Part shown: one piece after another, positions 3,921-56,100 of the stretch | Layout: every line of letters begins with the position of its first letter | How positions within the stretch are numbered: position 1 is the first letter of the stretch | Program-made: the position numbers and the translations under genes | Notes under the pieces: model-generated | The model's input: only the letters and a program-made list of their open reading frames with translations | Told to the model about the DNA's origin: nothing | Databases searched by the model: none | Origin: Microthyrium microscopicum | Taxonomy: Eukaryota | Direction: 5' to 3' | Assembly: GCA_010405405.1 (NCBI GenBank) | Contig: MU004236.1 | Coordinates: 322,576 to 386,575 of the forward strand | DNA length: 64,000 nt

Positions 3921-4412
3921 TGTAGGCATCGAGCCGGAGTGCTCTTCAGGAAGGAGAACTGGCGACGTGCCTGAAGAAACAAAAGAAGAAGCAGACGGGA
4001 GTGAGGACGGGAGCGGGAGAGCTTATTTACTGGCCGCGTGGGGTCAGAGGACAGGCGTAGTGGGCTCCTCTGTAGGCTCTGGAGTCTGTGGGCACCAGGG
4101 AAGTGAATTAATTTAGTACGGATTAATTAATTTCGTATTAATATTAATTAAATTAATATTAATATGACTTTGCTATATTAATTTAATATTAATATAGGGT
4201 CTATACTAATTAAGTTAATTTAATTATACTAAGTATTAATTAAGAAATATTAAATTAATTAATCTATTTTTAGTTATATTTTTATTTCTAGTAAAGTTAT
4301 ATACTTTCCTATTCTGTTTTCTACGTAGAATTCAAATCTACTCTTATAATTTTTATAGCTACTATAGTTCTTAAGATATAAATAGATTTAGAAAATATTT
4401 AATAATTATTAT

Positions 4413-4574
4413 TGTTATGGGTTAGATAACGAAGAGACAAGTTATATTGTAAGCCTACTAAACAGGAAGGTAACTTAGAGAGAAAGAAGAGTCAAGAGAC
4501 TCTTCAATTAAGGTGTTTATATACAACAGGGGTAGCCCAAACAGGCATAGCTTTAGGAGGTTTAACCCCTAATA
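4413..4574 (-). repeat. LTR (3' LTR of the minus-strand element)
   Basis: Aligns without gaps to 11834-11995 with 16 differences in 162 bp, all transitions. Confidence 0.93.
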
Positions 4575-10500: not shown

Positions 10501-11833
10501 TATTTTAGCGCTTAGGCTTCTTAAGCTATAATAGCTTATATAGGCTTAAACTATTTAATTCTAAGTTTCTAAAGCTTCTTAAGCAAAGGTATCTAAATTA
10601 TTAGGCTAGGAGTAAGTAATTAGAGCTATCCTAAGACTAGAGTCTATAGCGTTTTTTAAGAACTATATCTAGATAGAGGTAGCCTAAAATTATGCTTTAG
10701 TATGGATAAGATATTACTAAAACTTAGCCTAAAAGATTCTCTATTCTCTACCTCTTTGTTAGATCCCTTAGAGGTTTACTAAAGCTCTTATTTCTTTATA
10801 TAGATTATAAAAAAGAAAGTCTATTCGTTCTATAAACTTACTAAAACTTATAATGCTATAGCTAGTAGGATTCTAGATTTAGGGAAGGACTTATTAGGTA
10901 ATATCTTTTATAAACTAGCTAAATATATAGTAGATTTAGGCGTAGTTATTTACGTAAATCTATCTATTAATATGCAATTTTACTTTAATTATTTAGCAAA
11001 AACTAGGATAAAGGGTTAGGTCCTTATATAAATATTATTCTAAGTTTAGAAGAGCTAGTTAAAAATTTCGTGATAGTAGTTAAAGTAGCTTATATTAGGT
11101 AGCTAAAAGATTTATTAGAAGAGGTAGAGAAAAGGTTACTAATCTAGCTATCGTAATTAGAGTCTAAGAAGGATTAGCTTATAGAATTAGAGAAGGGTAG
11201 TAGCTATAGTTAGAGGTTTCTTTAGTAAAGAGTATAGCTAGTATTAAAGAAAGAGTTATACTAAGCGTTATAGATTCTTTCTAGAGTCGTTCCTATTCCT
11301 ATTACTATTACTAGGTTAGCGTCTTATAGGCAGTATTATTTACTTATTATATAAGGATCTTACTATTAGCGTAGATATTAGTAAGCTATTTATTCTAGTT
11401 ATTAACTTAGGCCTAGAGTTTAGCATAGACTACTACAATTTATTACGCATTCTTATTTAATTATATATAAATTTCGTTAGTTAACCTATTTAGTTATTAT
11501 AAGGCTTATTCGTAATTAGTAGTAGTTATACGTAATTATAAGATAGATAAATTAAACGTATCGTTAAGCAGTAAAATGCTATTTATTACTCATTATAAGC
11601 TATTATTAGTTACCTCTTAGGATACGTCTAAGTAGTTCTATAGCTTTGTTTATTATTAGTTAATATACGTAAAGTACGCTTCTATATTCTTACGAGTAAA
11701 GCCCTTAAAGGACGTTTCTCTATCTTATCTAGTAGTTATTAGGTAAGAGGGATCTTAGTCTACTATTCTAGCTATTTATTAACGGATAGAGAGGAAGTAA
11801 GTAAAAAGAAGGGTTAGTTTTAAAGTTATCTAA

Positions 11834-11995
11834 TATTATAAGTTAGATAACAAAGAGACAAGTTATATTATAAGCCTACTAAATAGGAAGGTAACTTAGA
11901 GAGAAAGAAGAGTTAAGAGACTCTTTAATTAAGGTATTTATATACAACAGGGGTAGCCTGAACGGGCATAGCTTCAGGGGGTTTAACCCCCAACA
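11834..11995 (-). repeat. LTR (5' LTR of the minus-strand element)
   Basis: Direct repeat of 4413-4574; ends in CA followed by the TSD ATTAT. Confidence 0.93.
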
Positions 11996-14275
11996 ATTAT
12001 TACTAAAACTAAAATATTTTACTAGTTATTCTAGTTATAAAAATAAAAATAGTATATCTAGATTCTTTATATTTTCTAGATATAAAATATATATAATAAA
12101 TTATATAAAATCTAAGTATACTATTAGTTATTAGCTTTAAGTAAAAAGTTAGTAAAGTTTATATACTTCTTAATTCTTTTAATTACTTAAAAATAAGATA
12201 TATAGCTATTATCCTAATTATAGCTAGAATATAATAAAAGTATATATTAAAATACTCGTTATAAATCTAGGAATACGAATATAGTAATAGTTTAGCTTAA
12301 TATTATATATTCGTTACGTAATTAAATTATTAAGAATTTTTAAATTAATTCTTTTTTTTAATATTAAGTTGAATTAGGATTTAGTAAGTATATATAATAA
12401 AAAATACTAAGTAATATCTTCTACTATTATAATTATATAGATATATTAACTTTAGAACTTATGTTACCTTAAATAAAACTATATATACTAAAAGATATAT
12501 TTTTTCTTTATATTTTTCTTTTTTTCTTTTTAATATATTTTAATAACTAGAGTTACTATACTAAAACTAATAGAAGAACTAAAACGAGCTTAATTAGACG
12601 AACAAAATAATATATTTTTCATAGCTTAAATACTATATTTCTATTTTTAGTAATATTAAATTAATTATTAATATTAATTAATATTAACGTTAATTAATTT
12701 AGTATTAATACGGTATAGGCATTAATTAATTAATTTTAGTATAAGCCTCCATTAATTAATATTATTATGGCGTTAATTAATTAAATTAAATTAATTCACA
12801 ACCCTGGTGGGCACTGAAATAATGAGGCGGCGTCTGCGAGTCGAGGCTTCGGAGCGCTTGGCACGGTTCAATTTGACTATGTACGGTCTTGCAACCGCTT
12901 CGTGGTCCCTGGAAATTGGCACAGACTGTGCTGCAGCACCCAAGATGCTTGGTAGCGCGGGTGGACAAGCACTTGCACAGTTGAAGGCCGCTTGATGACA
13001 CCCACAATTTGGCTGCGCAAGCTATCCGTAGATGCTGGGAGGAAAGAAGCGGATGACCGGCGGAATGCTGTGTCAAAAGGCTGGTCCGTAAATATTCAGG
13101 CAGTCTGAGGACGGTGCAGGGTCAATTCCGTAATTACCAGGTATGTGTGAAGGTGAATTGGAAAGGGAAAAAATATTGGGAAAATATCAGGATGCTGGGC
13201 AGGGTGAGAAACAGGCTACGCTCGCCAGCCGGGCAGCATGACAGGAGGTCCGTCCGCAAATTCCAGCAGTTTGGTAAAGTCTGGGTCCACTGGTCCACTG
13301 GCTCAACTGGATCCAGGGAGTGATCTGTCCGTGGTAGCTTTGCTTTGGGGGGGTTTTTCTGGGTCACTGGGATGAAAAGGGCCAGCTGCTGGCACCGTCG
13401 TTGGTCCGTATCTTTGTATGCTATTTCAAGAACAAGGCCAAATTTCAACCTCTTGAAACTTTATAACTAAACAGTATAATTTCAATCGCCTCTGGTATCT
13501 GGACAACTATGATTGTTGTCTGTCTAGATGCTCGTGAATGCAAGAAAAGGGGCCCGGAAGATGGGCGACAAGGGACAGGCGAATAGAGCCGGCAAGTGTT
13601 ACCGATCTGTGGATGGTGTTGGCAGCTGTGGTGGAGTTGGGACGGGAGGGAAAGAAAGCGCCTCTGTACAAAACTGCGCGTGGTTGAGCTGTAAGCCTGT
13701 GAGATTTGAAGTCTAGGGCAGGAGTGATAGCCTGGTAATCTGGTCGTTAAGATGTATGGGTACGTGTAACAGCAGCAGCGGGACACCTGAGAAGGAGAGA
13801 GGACGATGAGATTCAACCAAAACTGGAAAGCAAAAGCAGGCAACCTGGCAGTCTCTTATATTTTAAATACGAACTGTGTGTCTGGTAGGAATCACCCTGA
13901 GCGGCCGTGTATGGTCGGTCACTTTTGGACCTTTGGTGCAAGTTCAAGGCAATGGGCGTAGGCTGGCTGGCAAAAGACGGAGACTGCTCGATGCTGGGTG
14001 GTACGTTCGTCCTGTACTCTACCTTAAGGGGATGGCTTGGTCCTTAGGATGGATTTCTTCTGGTTCCAACCAAAGCGCCGGTGTTGGTTCTGTTTCTTTT
14101 TGGTTACAGCGCGAGCGCACAAAATGACAGCTAGCAAATCATGCTCAAGTTATCCAAGAGGCAGGCTTTTAGAGAGGCCGGATGCGATGAACCTGAGCCT
14201 TCGGCAGAGGACGGGCGAAAATGAAAAAGCAATATCTTGCGGGATCCACTTCGTTTTGGGCTACTGTGTTATATA

Positions 14276-15703: not shown

Positions 15704-18691
15704 CAGATCTCATGCACACACATGGCATGGTCAAATTGCTTACGTATATTGACTGGATAGTCAGGCCGCTTCATGAACGACAACCTTCCCGCTCACACCG
15801 CTGTGTATGCGCCAGAAGAAATCATGATATCCCTTCATTTAAAATGGCCATTTGTAGGTGTTTCTGAGTCCTCGATCATCACGGTTCCTCAATTCATTGG
15901 CCACTTGTTCAGCCTCCCCGAGAACTCATCCGCTCCCTTGGGAACATGACCCAAAAGGACTGGAGATCTGGTCAGCCACAAGACTAATGGTATTCAATTC
16001 TATGACTACTCATTACTATTAGCGCCGACAGGAACTGCAATGTTGAATATCGTAGGATTCAAAAATGTGCTTCACTGGCCTTTTTGTAAGGCTCATGATG
16101 CTCAATTGTGATATATTTCAGCCAGGTCTGTTGTCAATGCTTCTTTTGTGTGGATCACTGACCCAGCTAGTTGGAATCCAACCGCTAATTGTCTCACCTG
16201 CTCACTTAGCCAACCATCGATCCAATATCAAAACAGATATCACCGCATCACTTAACTCTCAATTCCCTCGGACAAATACTCTCTGCTTTGAAAAACTGCA
16301 GTTCTTGTTTATGTTCCTACTTTCGGGGTCTAGGGAATTCGTTACCAATAGATTTGGCTTTTGATACAGACATCCACGGGAGCATTTGAGACACGAGTTC
16401 ATGTTCAGTTGACCAAACACCTTTCATTGAATCATTATTTCCAAGTCAACTCTCAAACCACGTATATCAGTTTAAGGCCACCATAATAGCACGATGTATT
16501 GAGAAGTCTCCATTCAAGAAGATAAGAACTAGTGCGATATCAAGCGACTAGTCCTGGTAGTTCGTCAACTCTTCATAATAATACAGAGTCTAGAGCACAG
16601 TTCTCCAAGCAGTTCATTGAGCTATTTCAAAGCGCATTAGCCGCCAACAATGAACATAAGCTAGCCAGACACGATATATCTGCATCAACGCAATCTACCA
16701 GTCATTATGAAGATCAGCAATCGACATGCTACTATAGTGTATTGGATGATAATAAGTGTGCATGCTGCATCGGAACCTTCCTTTAACAGTGGGTTCAAAG
16801 TGTGCCCATTCATGATCCAGCATCCATCTTGCATCTTGCAGCAACAGCGGAATGCAAGGTTTATACTTTTCAATTTTGCCCACTGCTACTAAAAACCCCA
16901 GGCTCTATTCCGTCGTTTGGTGTTTCTAGTCTGGGCTTGGCTGGGGGTCGTTCGGCCCTTTTTCTCCTAAATTGCCCCCTGTGCGTGTGGGAGATTTCGA
17001 AGTACACTACATGAGGCAAGTAATTTTCTTCTTTCCCTCTAAAGCATTTCGCGCACTTGAATCCGCCATGCCGGAAACTTTTTCTGCTTGGACAAGGAAG
17101 AGTCTGCAAGAAGAGGCAGACAAGGCTTAACGATACGTCCATACCAAACTATACCTAGCAAAGTTGACTGGGAAGTTTGGCTACGTTTGTCTGGGTTTGT
17201 ACACTTTGCGATCTTCTACAACACAAGCTTTTCCGAATCTGCATGAACCCGAATACCGATCTTGTGCCTCTTTCCCAAAATTTAATCGTGACGAACACGT
17301 CACTTGTACATTATTCAACGGGATGCGGTTTAAATCTAAGACAAGACGGCAAGTGTTATACTAGCACATAGCACCATATAACGCTTTATCCGCCTGGAGC
17401 CACGTTCGCAAAATTGAATGACAGCGGTTTTGACGGCTCCTTCACCGCTTCTTCATGAAGCAGATCGATCAGGGTTCAAAAGCCGACACTTTTCACATTT
17501 GTTTTTTTGCTTTTTTCATATGGCTGGTCCACTGCACTGGATCCCCAGCACTGGATTGAATCCAGGACTCTCCGATCCCTGCAGTACCCGTCTTCGCACT
17601 GTGACGAGAGAAAAAAGGTCGCTATACCAGGGACAGTGCTTAAACCCGCCCGGTTGGTCGGTCACATCGCTTCAGATTTAGGATGTTGTGCGAGCGCGGC
17701 TAATGCATGGAAGAGGGTTTGATCTGGTGGTTCAGAACGGGACTTCCTGAAACGATGGTTTTTGGCGAGCTTGATGGTGGTCGAAATTTAACGTGTGCAT
17801 TGAGAAATTCCGACTGTGTGGCACGCTCAAGGGGTAGACGGATTGCCTAGTGTGGTGATTCAATGCGTGAGTTTCGAGGGTACTCAACGTGCCTAGATGT
17901 TTACATATTGATATTGTGTTATGGCCTTCTTCTTTGCAATGTGAAAGTAAACCTTTCATCAGAACAAAGATACAAATTCTCAAAGACTGTCGTGGTACAT
18001 CAGTACTCCATGTCTCATTTATGATGTTCATATCGGAGCCGATATCAGCACTACTTTTTCAACTACTATGTATTTGGTCAATTACATTGATTAAACTACC
18101 AGAAAAGCTGCCTACATGACCAGCATTTTGCTTAGGCGAGAATCGTACCTGCCTTATCACAACAGTTTTTAAGCCAAACAGCGAGCGCTATGTGACCGGT
18201 CTCGACAATCATGTAAGGCTTTCAACTGCGGTGCACCAGGCCTCTCGCCTGTTCCGATCCAAACCTCTGGGTTTTCGCGTAGTCTAAGCGTACCAATAGA
18301 TTGCGTTTTGAGGATTGGAACGTGGAATTGTGGTACAACCTTGACTTGAGCAATTAATGTGGATATAGACCCAAATTGTACATTGTAAGCGCCAGGGGCC
18401 AAGCAAATGTTCAGATCATGGAACCGAAGAGGCGCATATCAATGAAGTTATGTCGTATAACATCTTTGCAAAAGCTTTCTAACACTCGCGATCAATAGTG
18501 GCAAAATCCATTACAATAATGGCAAATTACTTCAGGAATCGAATCAATGCATCATTGACTCTAAGACAGGGTTGCGTGACATGGATCACTTCCTCAACCT
18601 CCCCTCCTCTACGAAGTCTCGACCAAACTTTTTCGAATACAATAATGTTCCTACTTCCGCCGAGGAATAGTGCTTAGCTCTGGAAAACACC

Positions 18692-19696
18692 ATGGCGCTA
18701 AGTAAATCCAAAGATACATCTTCATCCCAGAACAATGACGAACAGAACGATAGCAGCCATCGCCGGCCTATACTGCATCACCTCAACGCAGACTCTTCCT
18801 GGCTTCTACAACTCCCACATCCACATTCTAAACCTGGGCAAAGGACTTTCTTCAACATTCTAATCGATCCCTGGCTCACGGGTCCTCAAAGCGACGTCGC
18901 CAGCTGGTTCAGCACTCAATGGCACTCTGAAAGCCCGGCCTACGCGAGCATTGCGGATGTTGAAGAACTCGCTTGGAAAACTGAATCCATTATTGATAAG
19001 AGTGCAACCAGGAACTCGCCAATAGATGTCGTCGCCATCAGCCATGAGTTCACCGACCACTGCCATCGCGAGACTCTGATGCAGCTCCCTGTAACAGTGC
19101 CAGTCCTCGCACCACCCAAGGCGGCTGGTGTGGTGAGTGCGTGGAAGCACTTTGACCACGTTTGCGAAATGCTGCCATTTCCGCAGCACTCCGGGGAGCT
19201 GGCTCTGCCGTATTGGGTGCGCGTCTCGAGAGTACAGGATGAGTCTGATGCGCTGTATTACCACTCGGCTGTCGTCGTAGCGTTCAAGTCTCGCGCAGAT
19301 GGCGAGGACGTGGAGGAATTCGTGATGTATACGCCCCATGGTGTTGGAGTGTCAGCGGTAGAGAAGATGAGAGAGACAGCTCCGAGTCTTCGACCGCTGT
19401 GCTTGATCCACGGTCTACATGATGTGAAGCTTTCGGTGGTGCAGCAGCTAAATCTGGGTGGACATCATGGGCTCAATGTGTATCGAGCATTGAAGTCAGA
19501 TTCGTGCTATTGGGTTGGGACGCATGATGAGCAGAAAAAGGGAGGCGGATTGGTTTCTTGGTTTCTACATAGGAACATGATTACGCTGGGTGATGCTTTG
19601 CGGCAGGAGAAGTTGTTGCGGATGAAGGCTGAGGATGAAGATATTAAGGTCTTATATGAGGAGATCGGCAATGGTGAACAGAAGATTCTAGTTTGA
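18692..19696 (+). CDS. Metallo-beta-lactamase-fold protein (conserved fungal hypothetical hydrolase)
   Basis: Intronless 334-aa ORF with HLNADSSWLL, ILIDPWL, a variant metal-binding motif SHEFTDHCH, and later HGLH and GTHDE motifs. Confidence 0.8.
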   Translation: MALSKSKDTSSSQNNDEQNDSSHRRPILHHLNADSSWLLQLPHPHSKPGQRTFFNILIDPWLTGPQSDVASWFSTQWHSESPAYASIADVEELAWKTESIIDKSATRNSPIDVVAISHEFTDHCHRETLMQLPVTVPVLAPPKAAGVVSAWKHFDHVCEMLPFPQHSGELALPYWVRVSRVQDESDALYYHSAVVVAFKSRADGEDVEEFVMYTPHGVGVSAVEKMRETAPSLRPLCLIHGLHDVKLSVVQQLNLGGHHGLNVYRALKSDSCYWVGTHDEQKKGGGLVSWFLHRNMITLGDALRQEKLLRMKAEDEDIKVLYEEIGNGEQKILV

Positions 19697-20012
19697 CTTT
19701 CTGCTCAAACCTTCTTGTCATTTCGCGCACTATGATACCCCCTTTTTTTGACACAACTGTACTTGCTTTCTACCTTCAATCGATATCAATTCGGAATAAC
19801 TCTCCCTGAAGTTGCAATCGCTGAGTTGATATTGGTTGTAAAAGCAAGGTTTGCGCCACCCTGTAGAGCACTAACCGCTACACCTTCAATACCTACTTGT
19901 GCATTTGACTTTTGGCTAAATGAGATTGAGAACTAAATTGTATGTAATGGTTCTTAGAAATTTGACCATCATGTGGTAGACGGAAAAAGATTCGGCTAAG
20001 GGCGGATATGGA

Positions 20013-23000
20013 TGAATTTCTTAGTTGATTTCTCTTTTGCGTAAGCAGAAGATAGGCTTTTTACTGAGGCCCTTATCTAAAGTAAGGCTACTATATGGGA
20101 TAGGACTTAAACCTTTATACCTAGTTACTTATATAAATAGAAGATCTATTTAGTTTATTTAGTTTTAGAGGCTTTAGGTGCTTTAAAGGGCCCCTAGCTC
20201 TTTACTATTCTTAGCTAGTAAAGCAAAATTAACTTATAGAATGTAATCTATGTTAGAATCTATTAAGTTTAAGGTTTTAATCCTTACTAACTCTAATTTA
20301 TTTAGGTACTTTAGACTCTATAGAATCTTTATATCTTTTAAGCATTCGCCTTAGTAAGTGAAGAACTTTTTAGGATTTAACTTAGAGCTTTAGTAATATA
20401 GCATTTATATAGCTATACGTTCTGCTATAATCTATCATTGTAAGTAGTTTAAAAAACTAGTTATAGTACTAGTCTTAGACTAGATTAGTTAAGGCTTTTT
20501 ATAATAGTAAGATAGGTAGCCTTTATATAGGTATTATGCTATAAATTAATATATAATTCTTATACTTTTATTTTTAGCCTTTAATATATAAGGAAAACCT
20601 ATAGTATAGAGTATAATTAGTTATAGTATTAATTCTAAGATAGATATATAGCTTCTCTTAAACCTAAGGTTTACTAAAATCTACTTAATTATTTCCTATA
20701 CCTTTATTACTACTATATAATTAATTTAGATATATTCTTTTATAAAGTTAATACTATAAATTAGATAGTTAAGCTTATTTAGATAGTTAGCCTAAGTAAC
20801 TTAGTAGCCTATCTAGATATATCTATATAGAAGCTTTTAAAGAAGATCTACTACCTTAGGAACTATTAGTTTATTATAGATAGCTTACTATATACGTTTT
20901 ATTATTACGTCTCTTTTAGTCCTTTGCTTATATATAGTAATAATATAGGTAACTTTCTTACTATAATTAACTATATCTTGTTTTTAGCTTAAGAAGAAGA
21001 GATAAAACTAGCAAAATATAGTTCTAGAGAACCTTATTTATTAGCCTATTTTATAATAGAGTTCCTCTTAGCGAACTTAGTTATAGGCTTAATTTATATT
21101 AGGAGATTATAGAGTAATCTACTACTAATATAGAAATAAGCTAACAAGTTATTAAATATTATTCTTTAGTCTTTAGGTTTTAACCCTATTATATAACGCA
21201 TAGGTAAATAAGTAAGGTTTTATTATAATAAGGTTATAAATAGAACTAAGGGTTTACTTTCCTAATCTCTAAAACTCTTTATACTTTTTATTATTTTATT
21301 ACTATATACTATGCTCTTTGCTTATCCTTATTATAGGATAATACTATAGGTTAGCCTTTAGGATATTAGATCTTTTTACTATAGGGTTCTATATTAAAGG
21401 GTACTTTATTTTAGTAAACTTATTAGTCTTATAGATATAACGGAAAGCCTTGAATATATAAGCTAGTCTAATTAGTAAGTCTTTATACTTTACCTTTTAG
21501 TATGTCGTCTAAATCTAAGGATTTGTTAGAGCTTTTATAAACGTATTATTTTACTTTATCTTCTATTAGAGTAAAGAGTTAGTAAGTTATACTTAATATA
21601 GGTTAAAATAACTCTAAGTTTAGGTAATAACTACGTAGATACTAGCATCTAAGATAGATTAGATATTCTAATAGCTAAAGCTACCTTTATTTTTATATTT
21701 ATACGCTCCTATTATAGTAATATACCTATTATTTAAATTATTTTATACTATCTTACTATACTTACTTATTAATATGTCTCTCTATAAGGTAGTAATTAGT
21801 AAGAATCTTATAGCATACCTTATTAGGAATAACGTTAATAAGTTAGTAATAAGGACGTAACCTTTTAATAAAAGGTATAGGGCTAGCTACTAAGATATAA
21901 TTAATAAGATCTTATCTATAAGTACTTCTTAGAACTTAGTAATAACCTCTTTTAGCTTTATTTTAATAGGGATACTAAAGTAGAGGTATTATACCTCTCT
22001 ACCTATAACTTATATATTAGGGATTATAAACTATTTAGGTTCTTTATAATAGTAAAGTAGATAGGACTTATTCTAGTTAACTTTTGCTATTAATACTAGC
22101 CTAAAGTTATAGAGTATTTCCTTAATAATATTTGCTTCTATCTAGTCCTTAATAAGGATCTAGGTATTGTTAGTATAGAGTATTGTCTTTAGTAAGTCTA
22201 AGCCTAGTATATAGTAACTAACTATTTTTTAATCCTATTATATTATTTAGGCTAAAGGCTTAATTACTATAAGGAAGAGTAGATAGCTAATTAGGTTGCC
22301 TTAGTAAACTCTTAAGTAAACTACTATTACGTAACTTTAAAAACTATTAATTTAGGCATAGAGATTTATATCCTTATAAAGGATTTTAAGCTAATCTATA
22401 AATTTATTAGGTATATTTATTTTAGCTATAGCTACCTATAGGAAGAGATAGTTTACCCTATTATATACCTTCTCTTAGTCTATAAAAAATAGGCTATGCT
22501 TCTTGCTATTTATAAGTAGATTACTAATAAGTATTTAAATCGTACGAATATTATTATTAATTAGCTAACTCTTTAAGAAGGCTATTTAATAAGGTCTAAT
22601 TACGTTACTAAGGACTTTATCTAGTTACTATTTTAAGATAGAGGTAAATAGTTTATAGTCTATATTTATAACTAAGAGTAGTTAATAGTTTAATAGTTAC
22701 TCTTTATTACTCTTCTTAAAGAGGATTACAAGATAATTATCTATTTAACCTTCTAGGTACTATCTAGTATCTATTACTTCTTAAAATACTATTTATAAGA
22801 GCTTTACGAAATATAAGAACTCTTTAGGTTATCTTATAATCTTTAGTTTAGTAGGGGCGAGAGCTTTATAAAACTTACTAATAAAGCTATTATAGCTAGG
22901 TAAAGTTCTAACCTTTATTAACTAGATTGCTTTTACTACCTCTTATTTCGTTACTCTATTTATTAGTAGAGTTTTATTAGGCTTAGATACCTTTTACTTA

Positions 23001-26000
23001 ATAGTAGAGATAAAGCATTTTAATTAATCTTAGTTGATATTTTTCTCTTTAAATAGCTTTAAGTAATACTCTTTAGCTCATTCTAAAATCTTATTATTAC
23101 GCTTTAGTATAGCACTATCTTAGCTCTTTAGTAATATTATTATACTATCTATCTTTTTCTTTATTTTATTAAAGAACTATTTAGTAGGACGTTTGTCTAA
23201 TATAGCTAATTTAGCTAGAGCGTTATAAGAGTAATTCTTATATTCTTATTATACTAGATATACCTCTTAGATAGTAATAGCTTCTAATTATCTATTAATA
23301 GAGGTTAGTAGACTTCTAGATCTTTATATATATAGCTTTTAATAATAATTCTTTAGAAACTATTTATGACTTCTTATAATGCATTTCTACTTAGTCTATT
23401 AAGCTTTTATAGACTCCCTTATCTTTGTTTTATAAGTATCTTAACTTTAGATTAGGTTAGTAAAGTTAAACTTAATTAGTTCTTCTATATAAAGTTTTAG
23501 AACCTTAAGATTCTTTACGTTATTAATCTTTAGTTATTATCGTCCTAAGCCTTTAGGGCGCCTTTCTAGGTTTACTTTAAGAGTAAATCTTATAGCTCTA
23601 TAGTCTTAGTTAGTTAGACTAGTTTATATTATGTCCTAATCCTTAGTACGCTAAAGCTAATCTTCTTTAATATAAATTCTATTAATATAAGAGGTTTCTT
23701 TATATAAGAATACTCTAATATCTAGCTACTAATAGCGCTAACTATTAATTATCTTGCCTTAGCTTATTAGTTAGATGCTATGTCTCTCTAAATTAGGGAT
23801 AAGTTAGTTTAGACATTTAAGTCTATAATAATTAATAGGTAGGAGTTTAGAATTTTAATCTCCTACTATAATATTATAGTTAAGGTTTTTAGCTATAATT
23901 AACTAGAGATATATTGCTTCTTATTATAACTTATTCTACTTTTCTCTTTTAGTTAGAGCATAAATTAAAGTAACTATTAAGGTTATATTCTTATAGCATA
24001 CTCTCTAGACTAAGAAATAACTACTATTTATAAGAATATAGCTAGACTTATAGTCCTAAGTCTTCTCTTTATCCTTTAGCTAATAACTAGTTTTTGTATT
24101 AATTAAAATCGTAACTCTAGCCCTCTTTTTAGTTTCTAGTTATACTATATTAAGATAGATTTAGGGATAAAGGGTAGTATATTTAAGCCTTATAGCCTTA
24201 TCTAATATCGTTTCCTATATTAGTAGAATATTAATAGAGTTAGCTATTACGTAGTAGTAGAGATCTTAGAAATGGGTAGTATTATTAAGTCTTTATATAT
24301 TATAAGAAACTATGTTTATTATATCTAATATAAGAATCTATAAAGGGGTAGTAAGTAAAGTTACTCTACGTAAAGGTACTTAAGTAGTAGATACTTAAAT
24401 GAGGTCTAAATATACTTAAACGTAATACTTTAAACTCTGCTTATTATAAATAATATACTCTGAGTCGTTTATTCTTACTACCTAAAAAGGAATAATGGTA
24501 CTAATATTCTAGCTCTAAGGCCTAATATTTATAAGGGTTAATTAGATATATTTATAAAAGATATTGGGTATTTTATTAAAGTATACTACTATACCCCTAA
24601 GTTATACTCTATAGTATTCTTAAGTCCTTATAGAGAAGCTTAACGCTTTACTCTATACGCTTAGAAGTTTAGCTATATTATAAATAATATTATTAGTACT
24701 TAGACTAGTAGAATAGGTAGTAATAAAAATTATAGGCTTTCTAGTAATAAAGATATAGAGCCTAATAGACTCTAAGCTAGGGATCTTGATTACTCCTTTA
24801 GTAGCCTTAGTAGCCTCCTTATTAGAGGGGTATTTAAATATATAGCTAAGAGACTTAATATTATAGATCCTAATAAGGTATTATATGCTAGTATTAATAA
24901 GCTTATCTATAAGTATTTTTTGCGTAGTAATTCTTATAATATAAGTACGTTTATTAAATAAGAGCTTATACGTAACGTGCTTACTATTTACGTATATAGA
25001 GTTATTTAGAGAGTAATTCTTAATTAAGCATAATTTTAGCCTCTTAACTAACTTATCTAGTAGGTTTAGTCTATCTAGAGTCTAGACTTACTTTATTTTA
25101 TTAGTATAGTTAATAGTATTTAATTTAGTTCTACTACGCTTCTTTATAGTAGTAAAGGGTATGCCTTTATACTTAGTTTTATTAGTAAACTAGCCCTAAG
25201 GATAGACGTTTATTAGGCGTAGAGGGGTTTAAATAGGGAGTGCTTAACTAATTTAAATTCTAATATAGGTAAGTAAGAAGAGTCTTTAGGGTACTTAGGG
25301 AGGAAGTTTTTATAGTAAGGAAAGCTTAGGGAGAGTTATATAGGCTTTTCTAGCTTTATTTAAGGGATTAGTTAGTTTCTCTATTACCTTATTTATCTTA
25401 ATAGGGCTAATAGGAGTACTCTTGCTTAAGGTTTTAACTAAGACGTTACTTTTTTTAAGGTTGACGTTATTATCTTTAACTATATTATATCTAGCGTTAG
25501 CTTTTTTAGCCTTCTCTATCTTTCTTATAGTATGTATCTTCTTTCTTACTTTATTCTTCTTATTTTTAGCTTTTGCCTTTTTTTTGAATTTTCTTTTCTT
25601 CTACCTTTCTTCTTCTTTATTTATAGATATCTTAGCCTCTTAGTTAGTCTTTTGCTACTTTTTAGTAAGCTAGCGATCTATTACCTTATTCTTTGCTGCT
25701 TTATTTATCTTTACCTAATTAACCTATTACTTAGTTAAACCTATATCTAGGTTAGGTATATCTAATATATTAAAATTAAGAGCTCTAAGCTTGTTATATA
25801 ATTCTCCTATAGTTATTCTATTAGCCTAATTCTTAAGTACTATATAACTTTTAGAAGAAGAGCGCGTACTTATGTTTAGAGAACTCTTTAACGCTTTAGA
25901 TTCTATAGAACTTATACTATTTATAGCTCCCTTAGGGGGAGCCTTTTCTAATGTATTAGGGACTATAGTCCTAAGGGGTAGGTTTAGAGTATAGCTTAGC

Positions 26001-38626: not shown

Positions 38627-39187
38627 TTAAGAATCTGTCTCTGCTAACAATGTGTAATAAAGTTCCATATGCTCTTTATGAACCCTAGTCGCCAGTCCAC
38701 TCAACCACAAATACCATACGATATAAAATGGCGCTGTGCCCCATACTGTTTCCGTTACTCGCACATGGCTCTCATCAACAACTTCCAGCACCCTCAGTTT
38801 CCATTCCTCAATGCCTGCCTTCGCCACTCTGGAGTGGAAATAGACGACATGTTCCGAGGGTTCGGCGATCTGTGCCCCCTCAACATAGGCACTGCCCATC
38901 TCATTGAAGGTGAAATGCGCCGCCTCGGGACTATCGTCGATAGACGGCCATGGCAGGTTGGCATCTCTGGGAAATTCTTGGGACGATAGAAGAGTTATGA
39001 GCTTCTCCTTGTCTATAGAAGTTTGCTTAGTGGCATTGCCATGACCGTCTGATTTGAGTACGCAGTTGGAGACGCTGGGAAGGATTTCCTGCAGACGTTG
39101 GATCCCGGAGGACGAGGCGAGGATATCCCAGGCAGTGTCAATCGAGCAATTATTGAGGATGACGGAGTGATGGAGCCGGAAAGACAT
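38627..39187 (-). CDS. Hypothetical protein, possibly START/SRPBCC-like fold
   Basis: Open 186-codon frame from ATG 39187. N-terminal strand plus AWDIL helix, beta strands (VRVTETVWG) and a C-terminal amphipathic helix resemble SRPBCC topology; the fold is an inference. Confidence 0.6.
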   Translation of the reverse strand: MSFRLHHSVILNNCSIDTAWDILASSSGIQRLQEILPSVSNCVLKSDGHGNATKQTSIDKEKLITLLSSQEFPRDANLPWPSIDDSPEAAHFTFNEMGSAYVEGAQIAEPSEHVVYFHSRVAKAGIEEWKLRVLEVVDESHVRVTETVWGTAPFYIVWYLWLSGLATRVHKEHMELYYTLLAETDS

Positions 39188-43604: not shown

Positions 43605-45889
43605 TCACAGATCCAGTACCATCTTGCTCGCAAAGTCTTTGCCCACGCATGCAACGAGTTCTGCAATGGTACCCTTCAATGAGCTAGGATTCCGGATATT
43701 ATCCGTTGGCCAGGAAGCTAGCATCTAGAGAGGATCAATGTCAGTAGCTTCGTTCTGATCGGTTTGTATTAGAGTTCGGTTTACCTTGCACTTATACATT
43801 CCACCACGAAGTTGAATGGGTAACTCGCCAAGGTTGATCTGTGCTTCCAGCTCTTCTGGAGTCATCATTCCTGCGAAATCTAGGTCGAATAGAGATACCT
43901 TGTCAGAATTGTGGGAGCGTAACATCTTGGCAACTGCGTCAGCACCAATCTCATCCTTTGTGGACTCTGCGGGATTTGAGCCATCCAAGGTTCCGTTTGC
44001 ATTCTGCTGCCGAAGTTGCGATAAGGAGAGATAGTGGTGAGTGTCCAGTAGCGACAAAGCCTCTTGATCCAAGGGATCCCACTGCTTCGTCTCCAAATCC
44101 AAAAAGTACTGGGGCTGATAGTCGTTTTTGTACTTCATCTTGCTGCAGGAGTGGATATAGTAGCCCATGTAGTAATACTGATACTCGCCCTCGAGCGCAA
44201 GACAAGCTTCCCGTAAGGCACTAAGTTTACCAAAGCTATACTTCTCATAGTCTTGATGGTAGACAAAGTATACGCCGCTAACGCAATGAGGAAGTAAATC
44301 AAGCACGCCAAATGCAATCAACCTACCGTCCAGCCAATAGCACTGGTGGAACGAACCCAGTGGCTGAGACTTGCCGTTTACTTGTCGTTCAGTATTCACC
44401 AACGGCGACTTGCAAAGAAATCGTTCAAAGTCGTCTGGCTGGCACTTTTCTGGCGGCTCCTTGTGCACTGCTTGCTGGTAATTTGAAAATAGTAGATGCT
44501 TTTCCTGCGTAAACGATGCTGGTTCCAACGTCACCACAAACTTGTGCGCTGGTTTGGGCTCCGCTGGCAACCGGTCAAACTCTGCCTCGTGTATCGTCTT
44601 GACGAGATCAAAGCCATTCCTGGAAGTAGCTTTTTCCGCCCTTGACTTGGGACGAAGTATGGCAGCCTTCTTTACGTAATCATCGCCTAGTACAAACTTG
44701 TTCCATCGGTTGCACGCGCTGCGCTGATCGCGCCTTGCTCTAAATTCCGAAACTGGTAGACTGCAGATACCCCAGTTGTATTAGTTGTGTTTGAATGGGA
44801 TGTTTGAGGCCTCCCCACGGCATGACACTCGCGTGAGCACTTACCGGATTGTGTAGTGTGGGCAGCAAGAATGGCGCATTTCTGGGCGGTAGAGCAGCGT
44901 CCCGGATCTAACCAAATGACGCGATCCATCAGCATAGACACAAACGACACATGGAAGTATTGTATGCAGGGCATGAGTGGGATGTCACACGAACCTTCTC
45001 CAACCAAGATCGATCAGTATTTGGTAAGAGTCACATTGTAACACTGATGCTCGTGCGTAGAGTGCTGCACCTGTACGGTTTGAACGAGGTTAGACACATC
45101 CTCAAGTGGGGTGCTGTTGTTGAGTCAGGGAATAGAATGATGTGGTGAGAGGAGTGGAATGATCATTGTCAACTGGTGGATCGAAAACATGACAGAGTGG
45201 GAGTGAGACATGGCGTGGAGTATATGTTTAGTGGTTCTGTGGGGCAGTTCGCGGTTTTGAAGCCATATTGGTAAGACCGAACCCTGACATCGCCACAATA
45301 CAGTCCGCCAGTCCCCTCTTGGGAAGGTGTTGACATTGCTTCAGGAGGCGAGGCTGATACAATGGTACAATGGTACCTCATACAAGTGGGCGGGCCGAGT
45401 CGGATCGGAAACGGCACCAACCGCCGCTTTAATCTAGCAATCCGGCCGACTAGCCTTATGCGATTAAAACGGCGGTAAGCCGGATCCATAACCGCAGACC
45501 GCCTCTTGAAGATATTGGAGGATTGGGAGATCGTGACAATGCGAATTCGGGCCAAACGCGCATCAGGGTCTGGGGGTAACAAAAGTACAAGGGTAGCGCT
45601 TTGAATCAATTGGAGACAACGCACGAGATTTGGTGGGTTTAGGCGAGGCTGACTGACTTGAATTATTATCATCATCGTCGTCTTCAGAATTGAGGTGCTC
45701 CTGCGGCAGAGGAGCTGCAGGGTCTTGGTGGGCTTGGTGGGCCTGTGTCTTGAGGTGCCTCTGGTTGGACTGGCAGTAGCCACATGAAGAATCGAATATA
45801 CCTAGCAGCTATAAGAACGTGCTACAAGCGCGCAATGGGATTGGGTTACCACAAGGTTCAACAAAAGAAAGCTCCCCAGCTTGTTCCAT
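43605..45889 (-). CDS. ATE1: Arginyl-tRNA--protein transferase, 6 exons
   Basis: Exons 45889-45850, 45801-45658, 45070-44995, 44907-44845, 44760-43785, 43724-43605 join in phase. Motifs SSCGYC, LGWRRSGTLLY, SCCPHYTIRL, GSFHQCYWLDG, SFGKLSALRE, YYYMGYYIHSCSKMKYK. Confidence 0.92.
45280..45570 (-). ncRNA. Candidate structured intronic RNA of unknown class in ATE1 intron 2
   Basis: 15-bp helix (45476-45462 with 45434-45420) inside a ~125-nt imperfect hairpin (45508-45383), plus a closing stem pairing 45570-45558 with 45293-45280. The non-Watson-Crick positions in both stems are G-U wobbles on the ATE1 sense strand only. Confidence 0.5.
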
Positions 45890-47911
45890 GGCGGTACGGA
45901 TTTTTCAACACGGATTTTCAGGCTGGCAAGAATTGGTTGGATGATACTGTCGTGGCCGTTTTCGCCGGAAGATGCGCTAAAGGCGAAATACTGCGCTTTG
46001 AGGACGATCCAGTTTTGATTGGAGTTTTTGCGATGGTTGAGGTTGTGCACTGAAAACTGTGAATGTTGAAGAGGGTTTACGGAATTGCTAGCATGCTGCC
46101 TCAAGCAACAAGGTTGACAAGGCTGCGGGACGAACTGGGTTGGTGTTGCCTTTCTGGCAGCTTACTGTTACTGAAGCTTAAGCTGTGACGTCCTACTTCC
46201 ACCCACTCGGTCTTTTCAGGGCGTTTGACCACACGCACTGTCGCGTGTCCCTTGAAATCAGGCACGAGATGAGGCTTGGTTTTCTATATCTTGATATCAA
46301 GTCCGACCTAGAATCCTGAATTAGGGAGTTCTTGTGTATCAATCTTCACCAATCCGTCGGCATCAAAGATCCGGACACTAGCTAGTCGTAACAGATGTTT
46401 GCTGGGATGAATGACCTGCGGCGTGCATGCAGTTGACTGGCGTGGGGTCTCTATGAAAGCGAGCTCTCGTCTGCCTCTTGGGCGGCATGAAGTTGGTGTA
46501 AATTCGCCCTGGGAAGGGTTGCTCTGGTGTAAGAGGTCAGCCGGTCACTGCACTCTTGGCCTGGGCGAGATGCTTCGTGGCAAGATGGAAACAAGGCGAC
46601 GCGCAAAATGAGGAGTAGATGATAGCTAAGTTTGCTCTCGGAGAATAGCGTAGAGCGGCCTCAATATCAAAAACAAGAAGTGGTGGGGAGGTTGCAAGCA
46701 TATGATCCTCATGAGAAATGATGGAAGGATCTACAATCTATAAGACAATGAGGACATTCAAACTTACCTGACAGGAGAACGCTAACATCAACAAGGACAG
46801 AATTGTAGGTTGATGCAGCTGACAAAGCAATCGTATAGAGTTAGATTCAGAAGGCTCATGTCTTCCAGAAGGCGATTTGAACATGGCGTAGTAATTTGCC
46901 GCTGTGTGGAGTTGGAAAATAAAAACAAGAAGCATTTGAATTACGACAGCGCATCAGTTGGGCGGCTCAGGCTGCCTAGAGGCTAGTGTTTAGTGCAGCA
47001 CGAATATCAAGTAACAGGCAGTGGCATAGGAATCGCTAGAATATTGGTTGTAACTTCCATCTTATTACGGGTTGAATTGGTGTGGCCCCTGGTCAATAAT
47101 CTGTAGCTTTGTCGGATTGAATACCTGTCTTATATGTACTAGTAGCCTAGAGAGGTCTGGACTAAGGAGTACTCAACCATTGTCTTGGTATTTCAATTTG
47201 GCGGTGCTTAGCGGGCGCTGAAGGTAGAGGCGCCAGTGAGAATTGCCGTTGATAGATCCCTAATGTTTCCCTAGGTTTCGTAATTTTGTATGGATTTGTA
47301 TGGATTTGTATGGTAGGGGAAAAGAGTCTAGGAAAAGTATGGACAAGCAGAAGCACAAACCTGCAGGTGGTCTTAGCGGCGCTATGCAGCAAAGAGCATC
47401 CATCCCCTCCAAGGCTCCAAATGTCACCCAGCACGCAGCTCTCGGATCTCTCCTTTGCTTTCCTTATTTTATTTTCATCAACCCCATTTTCCCATCACAT
47501 CTCTTCCTTTTCACCATGATCGCCTGCTTCAACCCACCCGACCATAAACCTCCTGGAGGTCCTTGACTCTTGCCTCCATCAACTATTACATCTCCCATCT
47601 CCCATCCCACGGTTGCTCCTGCCCACCCACTCTCAGTTCCTGACTATTTAGTCCATCGGTCCCCATCTTAGCAGGCACCCGCTACTTTCTCCTTTCCATC
47701 GCTCCTGCCTCAAGCTTCTTCCTTTCTACAAGTAGTAGTCGCGTGAACATCAATTTCAGTTGCTCCCTTCCCTGACCAGATCTCTACTCTACTCTAGAGT
47801 ACCGCCTGAACTCCCATCCCTTGATCAACTTCTTCACAACACCACTCTTCATTCAATTCCTTCAGCCTACTCGGTCTTTTCACCCTGGCGCACCTTGCAG
47901 TCAAGCTCCCC

Positions 47912-53172: not shown

Positions 53173-56100
53173 TCAAGTCCAACTTAATGTCCAATTCGAC
53201 TTCCAAGCTCCACCTTGAGTTGCTGCCTCCAATCCAGAGATGCTGAAAGCTTTGCTGGTTGCGTTAAAGGTAGCAACTCCACTATCAACACTTTGTCCGT
53301 TCAGAGTCACATTGCTTGGACTTCCGGTGATTCCAAGAATGGTGACATTCGCCAGAGCATTCATATCGACAAACGAACCAGCGATACTGGCTTTCAAGGT
53401 GCTTCCACTAGCGACTAGGCTAACCTGAGTAGTATCTTGGGGTACGAGGCTCTCGCCGTCGTCTAAATACAGGTCACCTTGCGCTTCGCCATTCTTGTCG
53501 AGCGCAACAAGAAGCGACCAAGTTCCATTGCGGCTTTCTGCAGTTGTATATCCAGGCTTTTGTTGCGGGATGATATACCCTCCTCGTACAAATACAGGAA
53601 TGTGACCAAGAGGTGCGTCAATAGTCACATTGGTCCCAGGCTTGACATCGACGACTTCGTTCTTGCTGTAATAACCATACCAGCGGGTACCACCGTTGAG
53701 ACCTGGGAACACCCCGTTGACAGATGTTGCGCCCGGATTGAGGACTGGGACAATCATCAATGCTGGTCCAAGGAGAAATTGGCGATCGGCACTTCGTAGT
53801 GACGGATCCGAAGAAAACTCCCACGCCAACGCACGCAGTACCGTATCACCATGGCTATGGGCCTTCCAGAAGAGCGTATAAATGTACGGTAAAATGCTAT
53901 ATCTGATGGCCATTGCGGTTTTGGTGGCGTCGATGACTGATGACCACACATATGGCTCCTGAGAAGCCGCTTTGATAACGTTGTGATTTCTGTAGAATGG
54001 GAAGAACGCGCTAAGTTGCATCCATCGGTTGCAGAGTTCTTCGTCAGAGTTCCCTGCAAAGCCGCAGGTATCAGGACCAAACATTGGGATGCCAAAAATA
54101 CTGAAGCTGAGAGCTTGTGGAATGGCGTAATACATATCAGACCACTTGGCGTTATTATCTCCTCCCCAATGACCTGGTTTTCGATTAGCAAATCTTCACA
54201 TAGGCGTCAGACTAGTCGAACAAAACTTACCGGCTAATGTTCCACTTCCAGCAAATGTTGATCTTCCGATAATATAAGGTCTTTTTCCTTTGAAAACATT
54301 CAACAGCGCATGATAAGTGGCGTTAAGAATCTGATGCCCAAACAAATTATGGACATCATATTCTAGAACGCCATCTGTATGGGTTGCATTTGGCGAGACA
54401 GCGTGTACAGAAAGATCTCCGTTAACATTGTTGATGGCATATGGTGGATGTTCAATATTGCGAACACCAGGGGTAGGTGTACTTCGATAATATGAAGTGC
54501 TAGTTGAAGAAGCCACAGCACTAGCGGAAGCTGTAGCTGTAGCGGAGGCCACAGAGGAGGATTGGCTTGCTGAAGCTGCTGCAGCAGAGGCAGCCTCAGT
54601 ACTGTTCGTGATATTGAAACCTTCTGGAAAGTTGTAGTCGATATTTCCTGGCTCTCCTGGAAGTAAAAACGGTGGATGTACTGGGTTTAAGCTGAGGTTG
54701 TGCGTACCACAGCTCCCAATACAGAATGAAGAGACCTCGGACATGTCTATCCAGATTCCGTCAAATGGTACGTCTTTATACCATGCTGTAAGTTCATCTG
54801 TCCACCACTGAACTGCTTTGTCCGAATGCCAGTCTGGAAAGACCGTGTAGCCAGGCCAGACAGTTCCAATATATTCGCTACCATCGGGATTCTTTAGGAA
54901 GAGATCCAAATCATGCCCCCGAGAGTATGTCGAATAGGCGTCCGAGGTGTTGTCAGGGTTGGGAATATAGATTGCCGAGTCTACAATAGGAATGTAATGT
55001 TGATTATTCGCATGAACCTGTGACAGTAACTCCTGGAACTCTGGCAGAGGGAACGTGTTTTCGTCGGTGGAAAAGTCACGGTATTGGCTCATGTAGTCGA
55101 TATCTGACCAAATAGTTTCCAATGGAATATCGAATTTCTTGAAGTTGTCGATGACGTCTTGTAGATCTGACACATTTGCGTAGCCCCAGCGGCATTGGTT
55201 GTATCCAAATGTCCAGTATTGTTGCAAGGCTGGAAATCCAGTAGCCACAGATTGGTAAGCTCTTATGGCTTCTGGTTGGGATGGTCCTTCAAAGAAAAAT
55301 AAATCAATGCTTCCACCCAGTAGTCTCCATGTGATACTCGAGGTATTCAGAACGACTTCTTGACCATGTGCATTCCGATTGTACACGGCGTGTGTGTAAG
55401 ATGTGTAGTTTCCTTCCGGATCACTTTCGTTTCCTGTGAAGTATGACCAGTCGCCACTGCTAGACTGTTCGAAGTATCTCGTGTCCAGATACACTGGATG
55501 AGTTCCATAGACGCCATAGTCCAGAGGTGTTCCAGCATCTGCAGCGTACGTCGTTGCAGTGAAGTCGTTACCCAGACGAAGTTGGTGAATTCTTTCTCCT
55601 AGGCCGTAGACATTGTAATCCTCCGGCATGGAAGTAACAAACTCAATGAACTGGTCTTCGTAGACAAGCTTGCTACCGGTCGTGTTGAAAAGTACATCAC
55701 CATTACTGCTTCTTGTCACTGCAAAGGAGAAGGTGGGATCATTGCTCCAAGTGATTTCGAAAGCACTGCTACTCAAGTTGCCGCCTTCGCTGGCGGGCCT
55801 AGGAACCAAGCCTTCTGGAAGAACGAAGTATGATGAGTTGGAAGAATCCAGGACAGCTGGTTCAATATGAATCGACACTCTTTCTGGGCTTTGGTAGTCG
55901 ATAGCCAACGTCAGATCTGACACATCTGTGCCGTAGACGTTACAGGCACTGCCTGCAAGTTTAAGATCTGCTGTGATACCACTTGAAGTGTTCTTCACAT
56001 TCGAGGCAAGGTACCCGGGACAAACGGTCTGAGCATTCACGGCCTAACTGTGGTTAGCTTCATACTTCTACTCCTGAGAAGAACTTCGCATACCTCTGGG

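What the first reader, a model, noticed from the sequence alone, without database searches (positions are those of the whole stretch)
45071..45657. Oversized ATE1 intron contains a ~290-nt multi-stem RNA structure
Seen: intron 2 is 587 nt versus 48-87 nt for the other ATE1 introns. On the sense strand ACCGCCGUUUUAAUC pairs with GAUUAAAGCGGCGGU (15 bp, one G-U), extending imperfectly to CAAG..GGCGG / CCGCC..CUUG. GACCCUGAUG-CGC pairs with GCG-A-UGUCAGGGUU about 280 nt away and closes the domain. The wobbles work only on the transcribed strand, which argues for selection on RNA folding over a DNA inverted repeat. I found no convincing box C/D, H/ACA, TPP riboswitch, SRP, RNase P/MRP or telomerase motifs. 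Known: animal Ate1 splicing is controlled by competing intronic RNA structures. Inference: an unclassified intronic ncRNA or cis-regulatory element controlling N-degron arginylation.
Basis: partly seen in the sequence, partly recalled or inferred. Interest (0 to 1): 0.7.

Follow-up and report, generated by a model that had tools for sequence, protein, structure and literature searches.

The report
Folded intron in fungal ATE1 gene
A long intron in a fungal protein-tagging gene folds into an unusually stable RNA shape next to two alternative splice sites and probably tunes splicing of its own message, but most of the fold was not found in distant relatives and it is not a known RNA.

Summary
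The fold is real. The 290-nt stretch is the most stable for its composition of 1352 windows scanned; shuffle z is -4.7 sense, -2.5 antisense. It has no Rfam match and no second copy was found.

Corrections: intron 2 has two used donors (587 and 554 nt), and the 554-nt one is the orthologous site. The core hairpin scores alike on both strands, so the wobble argument is weak.

The big fold was not found in 80 distant ATE1 loci; close relatives were unavailable. A 7-nt donor-complementary element aligns across 12 long Dothideomycete introns (88% paired, weak covariation), but donor occlusion does not beat shuffles.

Best reading (0.4): a lineage-grown cis structure that tunes intron-2 splicing. 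A neutral hairpin is nearly as likely (0.35). An independent ncRNA is unsupported.

The parts
45850..45889 (-). ATE1 coding exon 1 (ATG at 45889); the transcript contig runs on upstream past 46500
45658..45801 (-). Exon 2, encodes the CxxC (CGYC) motif and a 35-residue low-complexity insertion
45652..45657 (-). Donor 1 (GUCAGU): 587-nt intron form
   Evidence: joint skipping 587
45625..45657 (-). 33-nt alternative exon extension, adds 11 in-frame codons ending K-P-T-K-S-R, homologous to R-T-P-x-S-R of relatives
   Evidence: same plus/minus 7-residue isoform pair annotated in Verruconis
45619..45624 (-). Donor 2 (GUGCGU): 554-nt intron form, the orthologous donor
45556..45562 (-).
45277..45570 (-).
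45383..45508 (-). Core imperfect hairpin (45 bp), containing the 15-bp helix 45476-45462 / 45434-45420 and an AGUC tetraloop at 45451-45448
45384..45569 (-). Candidate (unproven) in-frame 186-nt cassette between an internal CAG (45570) and an internal GUAUGA donor (45383); the NCBI model P0003 uses that donor
   Evidence: internal acceptor has no CTRAY branch point
45207..45214 (-). Short motif GCCAUGUC shared with long orthologous introns, outside the fold
   Evidence: pattern set after seeing the alignment
45089..45093 (-). Branch point CUAAC, predicted mostly unpaired
44995..45070 (-). Exon 3 (acceptor CAG ends at 45071)

Best explanation
A cis-acting pre-mRNA structure in an enlarged, alternatively spliced ATE1 intron, not a separate RNA gene. 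It has two layers. (i) An older, short element about 45-60 nt after donor 2 is complementary to that donor and can form a local helix over it early in transcription. (ii) A younger, lineage-restricted hairpin and multibranch domain folds about half of the intron into a compact unit that holds the internal splice-like sites, and offers the anti-donor arm a second partner (closure A). The likely effect is to weaken donor 2 and so tune the balance among donor 1, donor 2 (plus or minus a basic 11-residue peptide next to the Fe-S-binding CxxC) and retention, which meets a stop about 30 codons into the intron. SHOWN: the two donors, an intron-spanning contig, the predicted stability, the aligned anti-donor. 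INFERRED: folding in vivo, any effect on splicing, any switch, any effect on arginylation.
For: Domain ranks 1 of 1352 windows, with sense -3.77 SD vs antisense -2.45. Both donors are bridged and one 610-nt contig spans the intron in one spliced run. Donor 2 pairs with 45566-45555 at P 0.91-0.98 in 4 of 5 folding contexts, including a nascent one cut at 45500. On an alignment not fitted to the structure, donor columns 1-7 pair with columns 65-71 in 88% of 84 cells across 12 long introns, with 2 pairs changed on both sides and covariation score reached by 3 of 500 shuffles. The two closures are 4.4 kcal/mol apart. Long stems and structure over cryptic sites are common in long yeast introns (PMC12350175, passages). 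Donor masking by an intronic fold is the NMT1/THI4 mechanism (PMC3597705, passages).
Against: Donor-2 opening energy is 6.9 kcal/mol vs 5.0+/-1.8 in shuffles (6 of 40 as high), and the 37 orthologous introns show no general excess. With exon 3 included, that particular helix drops to P 0.03 and donor 2 pairs elsewhere. In one search the two stricter counts are not significant (242/500, 221/500), the tool warns that 5-25% of unconstrained related alignments pass the looser ones, and I chose the helix after seeing the alignment. The donor is quasi-palindromic, so any CG-rich palindromic motif would look complementary; two U-G pairs are nearly invariant, which suits a sequence site better than a helix. 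Twin donors also occur in orthologues with 89-191-nt introns, so the big fold is not needed for them; most Pleosporales-type loci have the anti-donor but no upstream GTCAG donor. The big fold has no detectable homologue. It is not a zipper stem: about 185 nt lie between it and the branch point, against a 42-85-nt total linker.
Confidence: 0.4

Rival explanations
1. Neutral structure. A local inverted duplication or decayed insertion in an intron that is long in many Dothideomycetes for other reasons (short DNA or protein-binding motifs, perhaps an intronic promoter or enhancer). The fold does nothing selected.
For: Hairpin z is equal on both strands. Other window loci come close (-3.55, -3.46 vs -3.81). 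Nothing similar in 80 loci; 15 other introns of 268-445 nt reach best local z from -0.5 to -4.3 with unrelated folds. The shared intron motifs are short and one lies outside the fold. Local duplications are present: a 12-nt exact repeat and an 8-nt tandem.
Against: The full domain favours the transcribed strand. Its 5' end coincides with the aligned anti-donor. No second copy or terminal repeat with target-site duplication was seen.
Confidence: 0.35
2. RNase III (Rnt1/Pac1) decay signal. The hairpin is cut in unspliced or nascent pre-mRNA, limiting ATE1 output or clearing retained transcripts.
For: The genome encodes a single-domain RNase III with dsRBD whose best PDB hits are 5t16/4oog (that these are yeast Rnt1p is recalled). 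The hairpin has an AGUC tetraloop at P 0.97; most known Rnt1p substrates have AGNN loops and some intronic cuts are known (PMC4334505, passages). Pac1 needs stems of at least 20 nt and tolerates bulges (PMC8421224, passages).
Against: Only 4 bp flank the loop before a 3x4 internal loop, where Rnt1p needs the first 5. The hairpin after U2 copy L093 has a pentaloop, not AGNN; L094 has the same sequence pattern by eye but folded otherwise. An AGNN loop arises by chance about 1 time in 16. One contig spans the hairpin intact.
Confidence: 0.1
3. Independent intronic ncRNA or Dicer substrate (milRNA-like) released from the intron.
For: Stable sense-strand fold; two Dicer-like double-domain genes in the genome; H/ACA snoRNAs occur in Pezizomycotina introns (PMC8216456, passages).
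Against: No Rfam hit to E 10, no tRNA. Core RNAs lie elsewhere. No conservation at distances over which such RNAs are normally kept (the norm is established knowledge). The domain ends are not fixed in context. The longest uninterrupted helix is 15 bp.
Confidence: 0.08
4. Structured cassette exon. 45569-45384 is a rarely included in-frame exon (62 codons, Arg-rich) whose own fold keeps it skipped until a protein or condition opens it, like plant structured alternative exons.
For: 186 nt, in frame with exons 2 and 3. Its ends fall at the domain start and the hairpin base. The frame is open for 162 codons (72 of 2000 shuffles). The NCBI model uses the internal donor.
Against: The internal acceptor lacks a CTRAY branch point. 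The peptide has no relative other than that model among 510 longer candidates (weak) and no Pfam hit over cut-off. With 11 YAG and 5 donor-like sites in the intron such coincidences are easy after the fact.
Confidence: 0.07

Closest known systems
Structured long spliceosomal introns of S. cerevisiae (zipper stems, class-4 long stems; PMC12350175, passages)
   Same: [quoted passage not shown]
   Different: Fails the zipper-stem spacing; filamentous fungus; predicted only, not probed.
Fungal TPP riboswitch expression platform, NMT1/THI4 type (PMC3597705, passages)
   Same: Two 5' splice sites; an intronic segment with two possible partners, one of which covers a donor.
   Different: No TPP aptamer (no Rfam hit); no known ligand; both products stay in frame; the domain is not conserved.
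Mammalian ATE1 competing intronic structures R1-R5 (PMC7797038, start of abstract only)
   Same: Same gene family; competing intronic pairings linked to alternative splicing.
   Different: There they govern mutually exclusive exons 7a/7b; here tandem donors beside the CxxC exon. No homology is implied or tested.
Rnt1p/Pac1 substrate hairpins (PMC4334505, PMC8421224, passages)
   Same: Long bulged stem, AGNN loop, enzyme orthologue present.
   Different: Short helix next to the loop; AGNN use not supported in this genome; no cleavage data.
Conserved fungal intron motifs of Li and Breaker 2017 (PMC5640933) and Gao et al. 2021 (PMC8216456)
   Same: Pezizomycotina intronic structures proposed as cis regulators.
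   Different: Those rest on covariation across many species; neither main text mentions ATE1 or arginyl (supplements not read).

Membership tests
Any Rfam 15 family (snoRNA, riboswitch, ribozyme, snRNA) | Covariance-model match | tested here: not met
   0 at gathering over the window; 0 to E 10 over 44900-46000
SRP, RNase MRP, RNase P, U2, U3 | This locus is the genome's copy | tested here: not met
   Found on other contigs; RNase P hit is 27.3 bits, just under the 28 cut-off
Telomerase RNA, U5 | Model match here or elsewhere | tested here: inconclusive
   No match anywhere in the genome and controls silent; no local match
MITE or introner-like element | Multiple genomic copies | tested here: not met
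   Only the self match with 587-nt and 131-nt queries; the tool warns this does not prove rarity
MITE or introner-like element | Terminal inverted repeats with target-site duplication | tested here: not met
   Outer inverted repeat 20 nt at 70%; no flanking duplication seen by eye
Zipper stem | 42-85 nt linking stem, donor and branch point | tested here: not met
   About 74 nt plus 184 nt from coordinates; definition
NMT1-type splice switch | Two donors, both used | tested here: met
NMT1-type splice switch | Intronic segment pairs over one donor | tested here: inconclusive
   Predicted, aligned in 12 introns, not above shuffles
NMT1-type splice switch | Conserved ligand-binding aptamer | tested here: not met
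   No Rfam hit, no homologue
NMT1-type splice switch | Signal-dependent change in splicing | not testable with these tools
   One run, contigs only
Rnt1p G2-loop substrate | NGNN/AGNN tetraloop on a stem | tested here: met
   AGUC loop, P 0.97
Rnt1p G2-loop substrate | First 5 base pairs next to the loop | tested here: not met
   4 bp then a 3x4 internal loop; requirement
Rnt1p/Pac1 substrate | Cleavage by the enzyme | not testable with these tools
   Needs degradome or in vitro assay
Conserved structural RNA | Covariation of the core hairpin among homologues | not testable with these tools
   No alignable homologue; nearest loci <=62% protein identity

The most novel reading that the evidence does not exclude
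A two-state splicing switch in fungal ATE1. An anti-donor helix kept across Dothideomycetes covers the donor next to the CxxC exon. In this lineage a 290-nt domain has been added whose alternative closure pulls the anti-donor arm away, so that a ligand or protein (possibly ATE1 itself) sets donor choice and retention. This would be a non-TPP eukaryotic switch and a convergent counterpart of the competing structures in mammalian ATE1.
Probability: 0.1. Interest if true: 0.8.

Novelty: new member of a known kind. Interest (0 to 1): 0.33.

Why it matters
How fungi regulate arginyltransferase did not turn up in my searches. An old plus/minus basic-peptide isoform pair beside the Fe-S-binding CxxC (PMC9884297, passages), with a donor-complementary element in long introns, gives a small testable model of ATE1 control. 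If the two-state reading held, it would add to the few eukaryotic splice switches. If the hairpin is neutral, the finding is an ordinary structured intron.

Tried and rejected
Sequencing runs: no holder is on record as RNA; X1 proved spliced when laid, X2 gave one 259-nt unspliced piece. In X1 no joint uses the internal acceptor 45570 or internal donor 45383, and introns 1, 3, 4 and 5 have no cover; contigs drop rare forms and short bubbles, so neither blank is used as evidence. Contig depths (186.6, 143.5, 39.9 against 376.5 downstream) are given only as rough figures, not isoform shares.

A profile HMM from 9 Pleosporales-type introns gave no hit in the window intron (best other hits E 0.61 and 4.1). 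Rfam on 13 orthologous loci: 0. Phage blastn: none. ARAGORN: none. Bacterial promoter/terminator scan: uninformative. U5 and telomerase searches rang nowhere. The covariance model could be run only on held loci, so distant structural copies elsewhere in the genome remain untested. One search used wrong columns; one search is the valid count. An SRP-like GAAA hairpin on the plus strand was considered and dropped, as SRP lies elsewhere. The intronic ORF's Runt hit (E 0.005, 16.8 bits, cut-off 27) was treated as chance. Earlier findings: 3 look-ups, none returned. Rows dropped: of 80 loci, 37 distinct introns could be delimited; the rest were duplicates, spliced, truncated or missed by my patterns. 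The 11 relatives in the alignment were picked by eye as long introns.

Full report
GENE AND ORGANISM. The region is an ATE1 gene on the minus strand. Its largest exon gives a product identical to a protein that NCBI names from Microthyrium microscopicum, a Dothideomycete; the next relatives are 58% identical or less over nearly full length. Pfam finds ATE_N and ATE_C. One public run whose contigs are spliced bridges introns of 48, 87, 84 and 60 nt, and two forms of intron 2: 587 and 554 nt. That is one run from one study, held as contigs only.

IS THE FOLD REAL? Yes, as a prediction. The whole intron is unremarkable (z -1.79, 5 of 100 shuffles). The 293-nt piece gives z -4.67 (0 of 40) and the 135-nt hairpin -4.51 (0 of 100). 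Against composition-regressed windows of 38% GC or more, the domain ranks 1 of 1352 (-3.77 SD; next -3.02; grid anchored on the target) and the hairpin 1 of 3080 (-3.81; next locus -3.55). The 15-bp helix has P 0.99. It is the best in 64 kb, but a modest outlier.

First, a second donor at 45624 is used. blastn of the 'intron' against orthologous loci hits almost only positions 19-45, which turn out to encode K-P-T-K-S-R, the counterpart of R-T-P-x-S-R, followed by the orthologous donor. Third, the wobble argument is weak: the hairpin scores -4.5 sense and -4.8 antisense, and the domain's best folds hold 13 vs 12 G-U pairs. Only the full domain favours the sense strand.

KNOWN FAMILIES. Rfam gives nothing at gathering over the window or to E 10 locally. 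SRP, MRP, U2, U3 and a near-threshold RNase P lie on other contigs. U5 and telomerase searches were uninformative. DNA searches of the genome return only the self match.

CONSERVATION. A metagenome scan kept 80 of 372 ATE1 loci, none above 62% protein identity. In 37 distinct introns I could delimit, length runs from 74 to 445 nt, and 13 are 325 nt or longer. A long intron 2 is therefore common in this class, and this one is the longest seen. Neither blastn nor a covariance model of the hairpin finds the domain in them. Fifteen introns of 268 nt or more have best local z from -0.5 to -4.3 in unrelated folds. What is shared is short. An alignment of 11 long introns plus the window shows blocks, one of which, about 45-60 nt after the donor, aligns with 45562-45556 and is complementary to the donor: 88% of 84 cells pair, two pairs change on both sides, and 3 of 500 shuffles reach the covariation score. 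Against this, the stricter counts are not significant (242 and 221 of 500), the helix was chosen after viewing the data, donor opening energies do not exceed shuffles (window 6 of 40; the 11 aligned relatives 2 to 38 of 40), and the block could be a palindromic DNA site (resemblance to MCB or E-box sites is recalled, not tested). A second shared motif lies at 45214-45207, outside the fold.

TWIN DONORS ARE OLD. An in-frame A|GTCAG 21 nt before the main donor occurs in 8 of 37 loci, six of them with introns of 89-191 nt. Verruconis has annotated isoforms with and without NRTPNSR. Annotated linkers are 6 residues in 4 and 13 in 22 of 30 proteins matched. The choice of donor therefore predates, and does not need, the big fold.

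HOW IT MOST LIKELY WORKS. As the intron is transcribed, the anti-donor can pair over donor 2 within about 70 nt (nascent fold), favouring donor 1. The hairpin and outer helix then pack about 275 of 554 nt, with the internal AG paired and the internal GUAUGA partly paired. The alternative closure would release donor 2 from that helix. Unspliced RNA meets a stop about 30 codons in, leaving only the CxxC half of the cluster ligands (PMC9884297, passages), and would probably be degraded (inference). One contig spans the intron unspliced. I put this cis reading at 0.4, a neutral hairpin at 0.35, an RNase III decay signal at 0.1, a free ncRNA at 0.08 and a structured cassette exon at 0.07. Evidence on each is in the Rival explanations section.

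LITERATURE. Read as passages: PMC12350175, PMC3597705, PMC4334505, PMC8421224, PMC8216456, PMC5640933, PMC9884297. Seen as listing and start of abstract only: PMC7797038 and the plant structured-exon papers. Searches for ATE1 with fungal intron structure or retention listed no paper on this element, and the two fungal screens do not mention ATE1 in their main text. Their supplements were not read, and most subscription papers are outside the library.

VERDICT. It is a real, single-copy, so far unconserved fold in an alternatively spliced intron, with one small conserved donor-complementary element worth testing. Interest 0.33; the switch reading has probability 0.1 and would deserve 0.8.

Noticed in passing
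window 45657 and 45624; L051, L052, L055, L061, L067, L076, L078, L079; P0031/P0123: Old tandem in-frame donors give ATE1 isoforms with or without a basic R-T-P-x-S-R peptide beside the CxxC motif. Other loci show a second candidate donor 15 nt downstream (L007, L023, L032, L033).
   Followed up: partly
intron 2 of L019, L027, L048, L050, L063, L064, L065, L069, L071, L073, L074: Several short shared blocks in Pleosporales-type ATE1 intron 2 (about 45-60 nt after the donor, mid-intron, and 55-115 nt before the acceptor); no Rfam match. Possible intronic promoter or protein sites.
   Followed up: partly
P0003, P0022, P0036, P0040, P0042: Several public ATE1 models lack the CxxC exon and begin in unrelated sequence before exon 3; for P0003 that start lies in intron 2. 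Others join exon 1 to exon 3. Mis-annotation or alternative starts.
   Followed up: no
window 45172-45801 (-): A second frame is open for 210 codons over exon 2 and intron 2; the intronic part has p about 0.035 and no relatives.
   Followed up: partly
window 45641-45652 and 45346-45357; 45358-45375: Exact 12-nt repeat, one copy just after donor 1 and one inside the domain; an 8-nt tandem beside it. Possible duplication or excision relics.
   Followed up: no
window 45890-46500 (-): The ATE1 transcript contig runs more than 600 nt upstream of the ATG: a long 5' UTR or an overlapping transcript.
   Followed up: no
window 19081-19245, 17521-17655, 38765-39124, 54445-54944: Next most stable folding regions of the window.
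   Followed up: no
L093 and L094, just after U2: Both U2 copies are followed by a near-identical 45-nt stretch; in L093 it folds as a 19-bp pentaloop hairpin, a likely RNase III processing site.
   Followed up: partly
window 4000-13000 and 20000-26000: AT-rich blocks (25-29% GC) with AT palindromes, typical of RIP-decayed repeats (the RIP label is recalled).
   Followed up: no
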